Positions 9,001-12,000 of a DNA stretch of 52,523 nt are shown piece after piece. The position numbers are program-made. Each line of letters starts with the position of its first letter. The stretch's first letter is position 1. The stretch comes from a virus (taxonomy: Duplodnaviria; Heunggongvirae; Uroviricota; Caudoviricetes): IMG/VR virus record IMGVR_UViG_2563366768_000003; one strand, 5' to 3'.

Positions 9001-12000
9001 AGTCTCCTCATTATCTGATTCGCAATTTACGTGCATATTTAAATATTGCACGTTACAACGTGCATGTGTATGATTGACTTATCAATCACAACACGAGATA
9101 TGCTCATGAAAAATGATGATGTTAGTGGGAAGGCCAAAGGCGGTAAGGCACGCGCGGCAAAAATGACAGCAGAGCAAAGAAAAGAATCCTCAAGAAAGGC
9201 TGTTGCCGCAAAAAAAGAAAAAGCTTTATTGCCCGTATCTGCGAATGAGGGAAAGTTAAAGATCGGTGATGCGGAATTAGATGTCGCGGTTCTCGAAAAT
9301 GGACGGCGTATCATATCACAAGCTTCTGTTTTTAAAGCATTTGGCCGACCACAAAGAGGGGGTAGAGCACCTCAAGAAGAGGGGGTGATCAATATGCCCG
9401 CTTTTATGGATGCTGCAAACCTTAAAAAATATATAAATCAAGATGTTATGGGTGTGATCAATAAGGTCAAATACAAGACGATTACTGGCTCCGTCCAGGA
9501 AGGTTATGACGCATCCATAATACCTCTTGTCTGCGATGTTTATTTAAAGGCAAGAGAGGCAGGCGCTATCACCAGGCCAAACCAGTTAGAGACAGCCAAG
9601 AAAGCTGAAATTCTGGTGCGCTCATTAGCTAAAGTCGGAATAATAGCGCTTGTTGATGAAGCGACGGGGTACCAGCGAGATAGAGAAAAAGATGCGCTCG
9701 CCAAAATACTCGAGGCCTTTGTCGCAAAGGAAATTCAACCTTATATTACAACATTTCCTGCTGATTATTATGAAGAGCTTTTCAGGTTAAGGGGCTTAGA
9801 ATACCCGCCGGAAAATCCCCGCTTCCGGCCTCAGTATTTTGGCGTTTTGACAAATGATATCGTCTACAAGAGATTGGCACCAAACATCCTTGAGGAGCTT
9901 AAAAAGCAGAACGTAAAGGCCTCAAAAGGTACAAAGTTGTTTCAGGGGCTGACGCCAAATATTGGATATCAAAAATTAAGAGAGCATCTGTCATCAACCG
10001 TTACGATTATGAAGCTATCTAACGACTATTCAGATTTTATTGCAAAAATGAATCGCCTGCATCCAAGGTTTGAGGATGTGAAAACAGACGAACTGGATGA
10101 TTCAGACAAGTAACAGTAACCCACCTTCAGGTGGTTTTTTTGTACAAATCCTTCAGAGTAAGTTTACCTCCTTCACTGCATTACTACTGACCATTGACAA
10201 CTTAACAAACCCAGCTTCGGCTGGGTTTTTTATTGCTGAATTTTCAATGTGAGAGGACATGACAATGAATGAGCTGATAAATAGCAATGCCATCAAAATG
10301 ACAAGCATTGAAATCGCTGAGTTGGTGGGAAGCCAACACGGTAATGTCAGAATATCAATAGAACGTCTGGCAAAGCGTGGGGTGATTCAACTTCCTTCAA
10401 TGCAAAAAGTTGAAAATAAACAAACAATTAGCCCTAACAAATTCACAAGCGTGTATATATTCGAAGGCGAACAAGGTAAGCGAGGCAGCATTATTGTCGT
10501 CGCTCAGTTGTCGCCGGAATTCACCGCTCGCCTTGTTGACCGCTGGCGAGAACTCGAAGGGGCAACCGCGAAAATACCACAAACCTTTTCTGAGGCATTG
10601 CGCCTTGCGGCCGACCTTGAAGACCAGAAGGCTGAACTGGAGAAACAGCTTGCTCTCGCAGCACCTAAAGTTGAGTTTGCCGATCGAGTTGGCGAGGCCA
10701 GCGGAATTTTGATTGGAAACTTTGCAAAGGTTGTTGGTATTGGTCCAAACAAACTGTTTGCGTGGATGCGCGATCACAAAATCCTTATTGCTTCAGGTGC
10801 CCGGCGCAATGTGCCAATGCAGGAATATATGGATCGCGGCTATTTCACAGTGAAAGAAACAGCGGTCAATACAAATCACGGAATACAGATATCGTTCACC
10901 ACAAAAATCACCGGGCGTGGTCAACAGTGGCTGACAAGAAAGCTGCTAGATAACGGAATGCTTAAAGTAACAGGGGAGGCTGCTTAATGGCTAAACCAGC
11001 GCGAAGGAAATGCAAAATCTGTAAGGAATGGTTTCACCCGGCATTCTCAAATCAGTGGTGGTGCTGCCCGGAACACGGAACTCAATTAGCACTCGAACGA
11101 CGAAGTAAAGAACGCGAAAAAGCGGAAAAAGCAGCAGAGAAGAAACGACGACGAGAGGAGCAGAAACAGAAAGATAAACTGAAGATTCGAAAACTCGCCT
11201 TAAAGCCCCGCAGTTACTGGATTAAACAAGCCCAACAAGCCGTAAACGCCTTCATCAGAGAAAGAGACCGCGACTTACCATGTATCTCGTGCGGAACGCT
11301 CACGTCTGCTCAGTGGGATGCCGGACATTACCGGACAACTGCTGCGGCACCTCAACTCCGATTTGATGAACGCAATATTCACAAGCAATGCGTGGTGTGC
11401 AACCAGCACAAAAGCGGAAATCTCGTTCCGTATCGCGTCGAACTGATTAACCGCATCGGGCAGGAAGCAGTAGACGAAATCGAATCGAACCATAACCGCC
11501 ATCGCTGGACTGTCGAAGAATGCAGGGCGATCAAGGCGAAGTATCAGCAGAAACTTAAAGACCTGCGAAACAGCAGAAGTGAGGCCGCATGACGTTCACA
11601 GTAAAAACCATTCCAGACATGCTCGTTGAGGCATATGAAAATCAGACCGAGGTAGCCAGAATACTGAACTGTAGTCGCAACACGGTCAGAAAATACACTG
11701 GCGATAAAGAAGGGAAAAGACACGCTATCGTCAACGGTGTTCTTATGGTTCACCGCGGATGGGGTAAAGATACTGATGCGTGATATCCGGCAGGTTCTTG
11801 AGCGCTGGGGGGCATGGGCGGCAAATAACTATGAGGATGTTACATGGTCGCCCATTGCTGCCGGATTTAAGGGACTGATCCCCGAAAAAGTAAAATCACG
11901 TCCACAGTGCTGTGACGATGATGCGATGGTGATATGCGGGTGCATAGCCCGCCTTTACCGGAACAATCGCGATCTGCATGACTTGCTGGTTGATTATTAC

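What the first reader, a model, noticed from the sequence alone, without database searches (positions are those of the whole stretch)
9029..10232. Independently regulated moron in the nin region with ACGTGCA operator-like repeats and tandem terminators
A 338-aa gene (lysine-rich N-terminus) between the methylase and the Roi-like gene is preceded by a sigma70-like promoter (TTGCAC-N17-TATGAT) overlapped by three copies of ACGTGCA (two direct, one inverted) and followed by two consecutive intrinsic terminators. This is an insulated transcription unit inside the delayed-early operon, the typical signature of a moron expressed from the prophage. Its function is unknown.
Basis: partly seen in the sequence, partly recalled or inferred. 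Interest (0 to 1): 0.45.

Follow-up and report, generated by a model that had tools for sequence, protein, structure and literature searches.

The report
Self-regulated P63C moron of phage 933W
A 1.2-kb add-on gene cassette in Shiga-toxin phage 933W carries its own promoter, terminator and a gene of unknown function, and comparison across bacteria indicates that the protein switches its own gene through the repeated ACGTGCA boxes.

Summary

**Observation.** All the described features are present: three ACGTGCA boxes, TTGCAC-N17-TATGAT and two terminators.

**Corrections.**
- The coding sequence most likely starts at 9106 (335 aa), not at the RefSeq start 9064.
- Only the first terminator belongs to the unit. 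The second is left over from the antirepressor gene that the cassette displaced.

**Moron reading: supported.**
- The same 1.19-1.20 kb block (window 8957-10143/10160, 42% GC against about 49% in the flanks) occurs at 98.8-100% identity in three unrelated E. coli prophage contexts.
- It is present in only 49 of 5426 complete E. coli genomes.

**New result.**
- The boxes are the local dialect of an operator that travels with this gene family across bacterial phyla (usually TGCAAGCA).
- Box position 5 co-varies with one residue of the basic N-terminal helix. A goes with Ile/Val (41 of 44 loci) and C goes with Ser/Ala/Gln (18 of 18). At least 12 independent switches were counted.
- The protein therefore most likely binds its own promoter, probably as an autorepressor.

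**Open points.**
- The role of the P63C part is unknown.
- Expression data conflict: a high microarray signal against zero RNA-seq reads.
- About a quarter of the genome homologues sampled sit next to an IS1-family transposase, and at least five lie inside complete IS1-family elements.

The parts
8880..8956 (+). Remnant of ninE (first ~25 codons). Homology to ninE of other Stx phages stops at 8956.
   Evidence: Alignment with phi296 and Lahn2; ORF list.
8957..10160 (+). The mobile cassette (moron). Its minimal shared extent is 8959-10143.
   Evidence: The same block lies at 99.5% identity in the P22-like prophage L208 (8957-10160) and at 98.8% in prophage L209 (8959-10143). GC is 42.4% against 48-49% in the flanks.
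9029..9053 (.). Operator O1: box 1 ACGTGCA, 11 nt, box 2 TGCACGT. Its right arm contains the -35 element.
   Evidence: Conserved in L004, L006, L128, L129 and L174.
9058..9064 (+). Box 3 (ACGTGCA), in the spacer between -35 and -10.
9046..9051 (+). Putative -35 hexamer TTGCAC. It lies within TTGCACGT, which is invariant in the six enterobacterial cassettes compared.
9069..9074 (+). Putative -10 hexamer TATGAT, 17 nt after the -35. The predicted transcription start is near 9081 (inferred, not measured).
   Evidence: Relatives have their -10 at the equivalent place.
9071..9088 (.). Perfect palindrome TGATTGA-N4-TCAATCA over the -10 and the predicted start. It is specific to the 933W-type cassette and sits where relatives have box 4. 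Unexplained.
   Evidence: Absent from relatives.
9086..9098 (+). Conserved leader TCACAACACGAGA. ACGAGA is the right arm of a variant box pair (TGCTCGT-N11-ACGAGCA) that is intact in relatives. It also holds the only Shine-Dalgarno-like GAG.
9106..10113 (+). Coding sequence of the P63C-family protein (335 aa plus stop). An alternative start at 9100 gives 337 aa. The RefSeq start at 9064 is probably too early.
9127..9219 (+). Basic N-terminal helices (GKAKGGKARAAKMTAEQRKESSRKAVAAKKE), the proposed DNA-recognition element. Ser28 (9187-9189) and Met20 (9163-9165) co-vary with the box sequence.
   Evidence: AF2 predicts helices 11-21 and 24-42 in 337-aa numbering.
9706..9978 (+). Pfam P63C domain (residues 203-293 of the 337-aa form).
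   Evidence: E = 1.1e-23, 84.1 bits, gathering cut-off 26.1.
10121..10141 (+). Terminator T1, the cassette's own terminator (CCACC-TTCA-GGTGG plus T7).
   Evidence: It lies inside the block shared with L208 and L209. Homologues also have a terminator directly after the stop codon.
10161..10234 (+). Backbone DNA: the last bases of the displaced ant gene and its terminator T2 (stem 10207-10228). Not part of the cassette.
   Evidence: Shared with phi296 and Lahn2. 83% identical to DNA around the 3' end of the P22-type ant gene in L208. -15.1 kcal/mol.

Best explanation
The region is a moron: a 1.2-kb self-contained cassette that replaced the 3' part of ninE and an antirepressor gene in the nin region of phage 933W.

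**Contents.** It carries a weak sigma-70-type promoter, a short conserved leader, one gene and one intrinsic terminator.

**The protein (three parts).**
- A basic two-helix N-terminus.
- A central alpha/beta domain with a weak resemblance to Bro-N.
- A helical P63C domain.

**Proposed mechanism (inferred, not shown).**
- The basic N-terminal helix reads the 7-8 bp box. Residue 28 (Ser in 933W) faces box position 5 (C in 933W).
- Several protein molecules occupy boxes 1-3, which cover the -35 element and the spacer.
- Occupancy holds the gene's own transcription down (negative autoregulation), so the prophage makes a steady, limited amount of the protein.

**What the rest of the protein does is not known.** My best guess is an accessory function acting on other DNA or on another phage's regulators, that is, exclusion, defence or antirepressor-like interference. 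The guess rests on where such cassettes sit: the slot where P22 is recalled to carry sieA, directly after cI-like repressors, the ant slot, and genomic islands.
For: **Identity.** 100% identical to 933W; the gene is L0095, annotated as a P63C-domain protein. Pfam P63C matches at 1.1e-23. PHROG 2384, of unknown function, matches at 1.8e-146.

**Cassette and mobility.** Breakpoints lie at 8956/8957 and about 10160 relative to ant-carrying Stx phages. The same block occurs in three unrelated prophage contexts. It is present in 49 of 5426 complete E. coli genomes, and 17 of the 363 phage records matching the query carry it. GC is lower than in the flanks.

**Conserved layout.** The regulatory layout and a terminator after the stop codon are kept in homologues that lie after a cI-like repressor (L004) and next to arc-, mnt- and ant-type genes (L006).

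**Family-wide operator.** GCAAGCAT/ATGCTTGC occurs 100 times in the 150 nt upstream of 83 family genes, against 23 times in the other 629 kb (218-fold). The degenerate box is 27-fold enriched. Boxes occur in both orientations, which fits double-stranded DNA recognition.

**Co-variation with the protein.**
- Residue 28 is the top column, with mutual information 0.97 against 0.66 for the next column.
- A-dialect loci have Ile/Val in 41 of 44 cases. C-dialect loci have Ser/Ala/Gln in 18 of 18. Fisher p = 7e-13.
- Two of the three exceptions use other dialects: Asn with TGCTAGCA in L132, and Arg in L147, where TTAGCAT-type boxes go with Arg in L131 and L199. The third is an alignment gap (L173).
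- Leu/Met at residue 20 also co-varies (p = 1.5e-9).
- The box class switches at least 12 times on a tree built from residues 46 to the end.
- A crude replicate on viral contigs agrees: 20/3 against 1/6, p = 9e-4.

**Geometry.** Box 2 supplies the -35. In relatives the -10 is fused to the next box, as in TATAATGCTCGT and TATAATGCAAGCAT.

Against: - No binding, footprint or transcription start has been measured. Everything on mechanism is comparative inference.
- The -35 is weak, and the generic scan does not call the promoter.
- O1 is centred near -40 of the predicted start. That is also a classical activator position, so the sign of regulation is open.
- The 933W-type cassette has lost box 4 and gained an unrelated palindrome, so its control may differ from that of relatives.
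- Co-variation can be inflated by shared ancestry, and the tree control used was crude.
- The structure model is only moderate (pLDDT 68.8), with no significant match to a solved structure.
- No defence-system model matches.
Confidence: 0.65

Rival explanations
1. The boxes are bound by a host factor or by another 933W regulator rather than by the gene's own product. The cassette would then be wired into a host or phage regulon.
Against: The boxes travel with the gene into unrelated phages and across phyla where host factors differ. The box dialect co-varies with a residue of the protein itself. No other copy of the operator exists in the 52-kb window. The described 933W repressor consensus half-site does not resemble the boxes (PMC3317979).
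Confidence: 0.08
2. The gene is not independently transcribed in 933W. It is made only as part of the N-antiterminated pR delayed-early transcript, and the promoter-like and operator-like elements are inactive relics of the cassette's earlier life.
For: The -35 is weak. There is no convincing upstream terminator (z = -0.6). Box 4 has been lost. One RNA-seq study found zero reads in 11 uninduced conditions.
Against: Boxes 1-3 and TTGCACGT are perfectly kept. The 933W-type cassette has four extra bases that set TTGCAC and TATGAT exactly 17 nt apart. The microarray signal in uninduced stationary culture is as high as for bor. Zero reads for a 1-kb gene whose neighbours and downstream Q and stx2 genes have reads looks more like a mapping or strain problem than repression, because pR read-through would also cover it.
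Confidence: 0.15
3. The cassette is a selfish, homing-type element. The protein would be a sequence-specific DNA-binding nuclease that spreads its own gene between phage genomes and represses its own promoter to limit damage, as the intron endonuclease I-TevI does.
For: Nearly identical copies have sharp ends in three unrelated phage contexts and truncate a resident gene. The family has very wide cross-phylum spread at 42-60% identity. The core holds many invariant acidic and His residues (D186, E187, E205, E211, H296, H321). The same N-terminal motif occurs in repeats behind a GIY-YIG-like head in another protein (P0141; the GIY-YIG resemblance was judged by eye and not tested).
Against: No nuclease family or fold was detected. 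The conserved core is predicted to be all-helical. In about a quarter of genome loci the gene lies next to an IS1-family transposase, and in at least five it is carried inside a complete IS1-family element that provides its mobility. There are no repeats or duplications at the cassette ends.
Confidence: 0.1
4. The inverted repeats act in RNA, as hairpins in the leader that control translation or stability, rather than as DNA operators.
For: Inverted boxes could pair in a read-through transcript. In many distant homologues the last box overlaps the start codon (TGCAAGCATG).
Against: In 933W and its close relatives, boxes 1-3 lie upstream of the predicted start. Boxes are used in both orientations and in varying order, which a sequence-specific RNA binder could not read but a DNA binder can. 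The leader fold is not unusual (z = -1.0). No Rfam family matches.
Confidence: 0.04

Closest known systems
Classical lambdoid morons (bor, lom, rexAB of lambda; sieA of P22)
   Same: An extra gene with its own promoter and terminator, present in some related phages and absent in others, and of different base composition. It sits in the same slots: after cI, next to the arc/mnt/ant genes of P22-like prophages, and in the nin region. The microarray signal in the lysogen is similar to that of bor.
   Different: The protein is unrelated to any of them. It carries its own operator array and appears to regulate itself. No exclusion or other phenotype is known.
Antirepressor gene ant of Phi24B-type Stx phages (ORF6N + P22AR_C)
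   Same: It occupies exactly the same slot between ninE and roi, and 933W still keeps that gene's last bases and its terminator. Both are modular proteins of the virus regulator domain set that I recall from Iyer et al. 2002 (that paper could not be retrieved here).
   Different: No sequence or profile similarity. Ant has a measured effect on induction (PMC3064807). Nothing has been measured for the P63C protein.
Pfam P63C family (named after p63 of Myxococcus phage Mx8)
   Same: A clear match to the domain model, and Mx8 p63 is found by structure search.
   Different: Pfam covers only residues 203-293. The N-terminal recognition helix, the central domain and the operator are not part of any described model. 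No paper on the family's function was found in the library.
I-TevI-type autorepression by a mobile-element protein (from my own knowledge, not checked here)
   Same: A protein encoded by a mobile gene binds an operator over its own promoter through a modular DNA-binding region.
   Different: No nuclease domain was detected here, and Pfam NUMOD motifs do not match.
IS1-family insertion sequences with regulatory proteins (such as InsA of IS1)
   Same: In about 20 of 80 genome loci the homologue lies divergent from an IS1-family transposase. In at least five it lies between GGTAGTG-type inverted repeats, and two of those show 8-9 bp target duplications. The box array lies between the two genes.
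   Different: The 933W copy has no transposase or inverted repeats. The protein is much larger than InsA and unrelated to it.

Membership tests
Pfam P63C (PF10546) | Match to the family HMM above the curated gathering score | tested here: met
   84.1 bits against a cut-off of 26.1, E = 1.1e-23, full model 1-93. All 37 aligned homologues match.
Moron (as defined for lambdoid phages) | Present in some, absent in other closely related phage genomes, with sharp boundaries | tested here: met
   17 of the 363 phage records matching the query carry it. Breakpoints at 8956/8957 and about 10160. The same block occurs in two other prophage types.
Moron (as defined for lambdoid phages) | Own terminator directly after the gene | tested here: met
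   T1 at 10121-10141 lies inside the shared block. Homologues have one too.
Moron (as defined for lambdoid phages) | Own promoter | tested here: inconclusive
   TTGCAC-N17-TATGAT is present and its position is conserved, but the -35 is weak and no 5' end data could be retrieved.
Moron (as defined for lambdoid phages) | Base composition different from the surrounding genome | tested here: met
   42.4% GC against 48-49% in the flanks and 49.9% for the window.
Moron (as defined for lambdoid phages) | Expressed from the repressed prophage | tested here: inconclusive
   [not shown]
Standard nin-region families (NinB, NinE, NinF, NinG, NinH, Roi) | Match to one of the family models | tested here: not met
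   P63C is the only Pfam match. There is no profile similarity to Roi.
Known anti-phage defence systems (PADLOC) | Match to a defence protein model | tested here: not met
   Only a non-significant hit, E = 0.005 with no passing stretch.
Bro-N / KilA-N type DNA-binding domains | Sequence or fold match of the central domain (about residues 45-140) | tested here: inconclusive
   [not shown]
Autoregulated transcription factor | Protein binds operators at its own promoter | not testable with these tools
   Supported indirectly by the cross-phylum operator and residue-base co-variation. It needs EMSA or footprinting.
IS1-family passenger gene | Lies between IS1-type inverted repeats, next to an IS1-family transposase | tested here: not met
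   Not met for the 933W copy: no transposase and no repeats at the ends. Met for homologues L152, L155, L195, L199 and L204.

The most novel reading that the evidence does not exclude
The P63C family may be a very widespread, horizontally mobile class of self-regulating DNA-binding proteins, carried by phage morons and by IS1-family elements across bacterial phyla. Its short basic N-terminal helix (GGxARAxxLTPExRxE[I/S]AxKAAxxRW) would be an undescribed, modular DNA-reading unit with a simple residue-to-base code: Ile for A, Ser/Ala for C, Asn and Arg for other dialects. Its conserved C-terminal core would carry out a still unknown activity, such as exclusion or defence, interference with other elements' regulators, or control of transposition.
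Probability: 0.35. Interest if true: 0.7.

Novelty: new variant of a known kind. Interest (0 to 1): 0.5.

Why it matters
**For 933W.**
- An anonymous gene of the best-known Stx2 phage becomes a testable unit. It is a prophage accessory gene with a predicted operator, a predicted recognition residue and a clear swap experiment.
- It sits upstream of Q and stx2 and adds a terminator to the path of the delayed-early transcript. It also replaces an antirepressor that speeds induction in sister phages. It could therefore bear on differences in induction and toxin output between Stx phages.

**More broadly.**
- More than 6700 homologues were found, and no functional study turned up in the library searched.
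- A family-wide operator with a one-residue code, and carriage inside IS1-family elements, give a way into the biology of that family. They may also point to a small programmable DNA-binding module.

Tried and rejected
- **Protein family libraries.** NCBIfam and PADLOC gave no usable match. A Pfam scan of all 37 aligned members at E up to 1 gave only P63C plus scattered noise. A Pfam scan of the N-terminal 180 residues found no family, including NUMOD motifs.
- **Profile comparison.** No similarity to the displaced Ant protein or to Roi.
- **Exact operator scan of viral contigs.** The scan returned 120 loci, but only 12 lie next to near-identical 933W-type genes. The rest are consistent with chance for 14 specified bases, so the scan was uninformative beyond close relatives.
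- **More operator copies in the window.** Searching with up to 3 mismatches gave no more hits than shuffled sequence does. The fourth ACGTGCA, at 47327, is an isolated copy inside a gene.
- **933W CI repressor.** The idea that it binds the 9071-9088 palindrome was dropped, because the described consensus half-site is unrelated.
- **Rfam.** Only sub-threshold hits.
- **Literature.** Searches for P63C, PF10546 and L0095 found no functional work. The Iyer 2002 paper could not be retrieved.
- **Transcription start data.** The EDL933 start-site tables are truncated in the held copy and do not reach 1.35 Mb. A ribosome-profiling supplement does not list the gene.
- **Search with the 40-residue N-terminal motif alone.** It had little power (12 hits), although it showed the motif repeated in other proteins.
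- **Small convergent ORFs with the same motif.** All have Ile whatever the local dialect, so they gave no extra co-variation evidence.
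Full report
**What the window is.**
- The 1381 bases around the finding are 100% identical to Escherichia phage 933W and to several other Stx2a phages.
- Window coordinate equals NC_000924 coordinate minus 8468.
- The gene is L0095 / ST933Wp35, annotated as a hypothetical protein or P63C domain-containing protein. It lies between the Dam-type methylase and roi, upstream of ninG, ninH, Q, the tRNAs and stx2AB.

**Check of the observation.**
- The three ACGTGCA boxes lie at 9029-9035 (+), 9047-9053 (-) and 9058-9064 (+). The window holds only one further copy, although shuffles give about eight. 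Three copies within 36 bp therefore has a window-wide chance of roughly 2e-4 to 1.5e-3.
- Boxes 1 and 2 form a perfect inverted repeat with an 11-nt spacer. Boxes 2 and 3 form a second, tighter one.
- TTGCAC-N17-TATGAT lies at 9046-9074. It is not listed by the generic promoter scan, because the -35 matches only 3 of 6 positions.
- Both terminators are present. T1 (10121-10134 plus T7) is modest at -8.6 kcal/mol, and T2 (10207-10228) is strong at -15.1 kcal/mol.
- The ORF is real. The RefSeq start at 9064 would put the start codon inside the promoter. Homologues align from a start at 9100 or 9106, and most gene calls for this protein are 335 aa. The first 45 residues hold 13 Lys/Arg.

**The unit is a discrete cassette.**
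- Alignment with Stx phages phi296 and Lahn2 shows identity up to 8956, inside ninE, and again from about 10160. Between those points the other phages carry the rest of ninE, a small ORF and an ant gene of the ORF6N + P22AR_C type. That gene is the antirepressor studied in Phi24B, whose loss lowers and delays late-promoter activity after induction (PMC3064807).
- The second terminator, and about 45 bases before it, are shared with those phages. They are also 83% identical to DNA around the 3' end of a P22-type ant gene. T2 is therefore the terminator of the displaced ant gene, and only T1 came with the cassette.
- In complete E. coli genomes the block is rare (49 of 5426) and single-copy in EDL933.
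- It recurs at 98.8-100% identity in two further contexts. One is a P22-like prophage, between the DNA-transfer genes and the arc-family repressor genes next to ant, which is where I recall P22 carrying sieA. The other is the middle of the tail/baseplate genes of a different prophage.
- The shared extent is 8957/8959 to 10143/10160. No repeats or duplications mark the ends.
- The block is 42.4% GC against 48-49% on either side. These are the marks of a moron.

**The regulatory region travels with the gene.**
- Homologues 82-87% identical in protein lie directly after a cI-like S24 repressor (L004, L005) or next to arc-, mnt- and ant-type genes in Morganella (L006, L007).
- Their upstream DNA is otherwise different. 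It still keeps box 1, 10-11 nt, TTGCACGT, 4 nt, box 3, a -10-like element, a fourth box, and the leader TCACAACACGAGA. Each also has a terminator just after the stop codon.
- Compared with these relatives, the 933W-type cassette has four extra bases that set TTGCAC and TATGAT 17 nt apart. It has lost box 4 and carries an unrelated perfect palindrome (9071-9088) over the -10.

**A family-wide operator.**
- The protein has more than 6700 relatives of 320-345 aa.
- The 80 genome loci retrieved span Proteobacteria, Actinobacteria, Chloroflexi, Planctomycetes, Acidobacteria, Nitrospira, Bacteroidetes and Chlamydiae. Over the full length they are 41-70% identical to the 933W protein, most of them 42-59%.
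- In the 150 nt upstream of 83 such genes, the 8-mer GCAAGCAT/ATGCTTGC occurs 100 times in 44 loci. It occurs 23 times in the remaining 629 kb, a 218-fold enrichment. A degenerate box pattern is 27-fold enriched.
- Most loci have two to five boxes, in both orientations. These are often a pair about 18-21 nt apart plus further boxes. In many loci the last box covers the start codon.
- Lineages use dialects: TGCAAGCA (39 loci), TGCACGCA (9), TGCACGT (9, including 933W), TGCAAGTA (5) and rarer ones.
- The 933W ACGTGCA boxes are therefore one dialect of an operator that has stayed with this gene across phyla where host regulators are not shared.

**The protein co-evolves with the box.**
- Among all alignment columns, residue 28 of the 335-aa protein (the first Ser of RKESSRKA in the second basic helix) carries by far the most information about the dialect: 0.97 bits against 0.66 for the next column.
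- Where box position 5 is A, the residue is Ile or Val in 41 of 44 loci. Where it is C, the residue is Ser, Ala or Gln in 18 of 18 (Fisher p = 7e-13).
- Two of the three exceptions use other dialects: Asn with TGCTAGCA in L132, and Arg in L147, where TTAGCAT-type boxes go with Arg in L131 and L199. The third (L173) is an alignment gap. His goes with GCGAAA-type boxes.
- Residue 20 co-varies as well, Leu against Met (p = 1.5e-9). Arg16 and Arg25 are almost invariant.
- On a tree built only from residues 46 to the end, the box class changes at least 12 times. Several C-dialect proteins have A-dialect nearest neighbours, so this is not a single inherited split.
- A rough replicate on phage contigs gives the same direction: 20/3 against 1/6, p = 9e-4.
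- The simplest reading is that the basic N-terminal helix is the recognition element and the protein binds its own boxes. This is inference; no binding was measured.

**How it probably works.**
- Box 2 contains the -35, and box 3 lies in the spacer.
- In relatives, further boxes are fused to the -10 (TATAATGCTCGT, TATAATGCAAGCAT) and lie in the leader or over the start codon. Such positions usually mean repression, so negative autoregulation is the most likely mode.
- O1 is centred near -40 of the predicted start, which is also a typical activator position. A mixed mode cannot be excluded.
- Use of the box in both orientations argues for double-stranded DNA rather than RNA recognition. The leader has no unusual fold and there is no Rfam match.

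**What the rest of the protein is.**
- Pfam recognises only the P63C domain, residues 203-293. PHROG 2384 is of unknown function.
- The AlphaFold model is moderate (pLDDT 68.8). It shows two N-terminal helices, a small beta-rich domain (about residues 45-140) and a helical C-terminal half.
- The conserved core (VGIIALVDEATGYQ...FVAKELQPW..TFP..YYEELFRLRG) has many invariant charged residues but no recognisable catalytic motif.
- No defence model matches. No functional literature was found.
- The function beyond self-regulation is therefore open.
- Genomic position gives the only hint. The gene sits after cI-like repressors (5 of 80 loci), in the P22-like slot next to the arc/mnt/ant genes, in the ant slot, in a Pseudomonas island with pyocin and PAAR genes, and near the immunity region of a Chromobacterium prophage. 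These are places where exclusion, defence and regulator-interference genes are usually found.

**Expression.**
- In a strand-specific RNA-seq study it is one of 144 genes with no read in any of 11 conditions. The methylase, roi, Q and stx2 genes around it do have reads (PMC4048457).
- Any pR read-through that reaches Q must cross this gene. A complete absence of reads therefore looks technical or strain-related, but I could not resolve it.
- Transcription start tables for EDL933 are truncated in the held copy.

**Verdict.**
The moron interpretation is supported.
- The added result is a well-supported computational case that the lysine-rich N-terminus reads the ACGTGCA boxes.
- The kind of thing (a prophage moron with a self-regulated gene) is known. 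The protein family, its operator code and its carriage on IS1-family elements appear not to have been described.

Noticed in passing
L155 2978-5338; L199 3017-5232; L152 2985-5309; L195 2694-5368; L204 3052-5257: Homologues of the gene lie inside complete IS1-family elements of 2.2-2.7 kb. These carry GGTAGTG-type terminal inverted repeats, and two of them (L155, L199) show 8-9 bp target duplications. The gene is divergent from an IS1-family DDE transposase, with the box array between the two genes. About 20 of 80 genome loci have this transposase next door.
   Followed up: partly
L161, L179, L181, L185, L187, immediately downstream of the P63C gene on the opposite strand: A small convergent ORF (68-129 aa) overlaps the stop codon by 4 nt. 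It ends in the same GGKxRAxxLTPExRxEIAxKAAxxRW motif as the N-terminus of the P63C protein, always with Ile.
   Followed up: partly
Proteins P0139, P0141, P0142, P0143, P0145: The basic N-terminal motif occurs as two to four tandem copies in unrelated small proteins. In one case it follows a head that looks GIY-YIG-like by eye (not tested). This suggests a modular, repeatable DNA-binding unit that no Pfam model covers.
   Followed up: no
window 9071-9088: A perfect palindrome, TGATTGA-CTTA-TCAATCA, lies over the putative -10 and the predicted start. It is present only in the 933W-type cassette, where relatives have box 4. It does not resemble the described 933W repressor site. Its binder, if any, is unknown.
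   Followed up: partly
window 8879-8980: ninE is cut after about 25 codons by the cassette and reads on into cassette DNA, giving a 33-codon chimeric ORF.
   Followed up: yes
window 9064-9105: The RefSeq and GenBank starts for this gene (349 or 347 aa, at 9064 or 9070) lie inside the promoter and operator. Homologues and most other gene calls support 9106.
   Followed up: yes
[not shown]
   Followed up: partly
L006 3920-3990: The Morganella homologue keeps four full boxes arranged as two adjacent 25-bp palindromes (ACGTGCA-N11-TGCACGT and ACGTACA-N11-TGCACGT). This is probably closer to the ancestral operator layout than the 933W version.
   Followed up: partly
[not shown]
   Followed up: no
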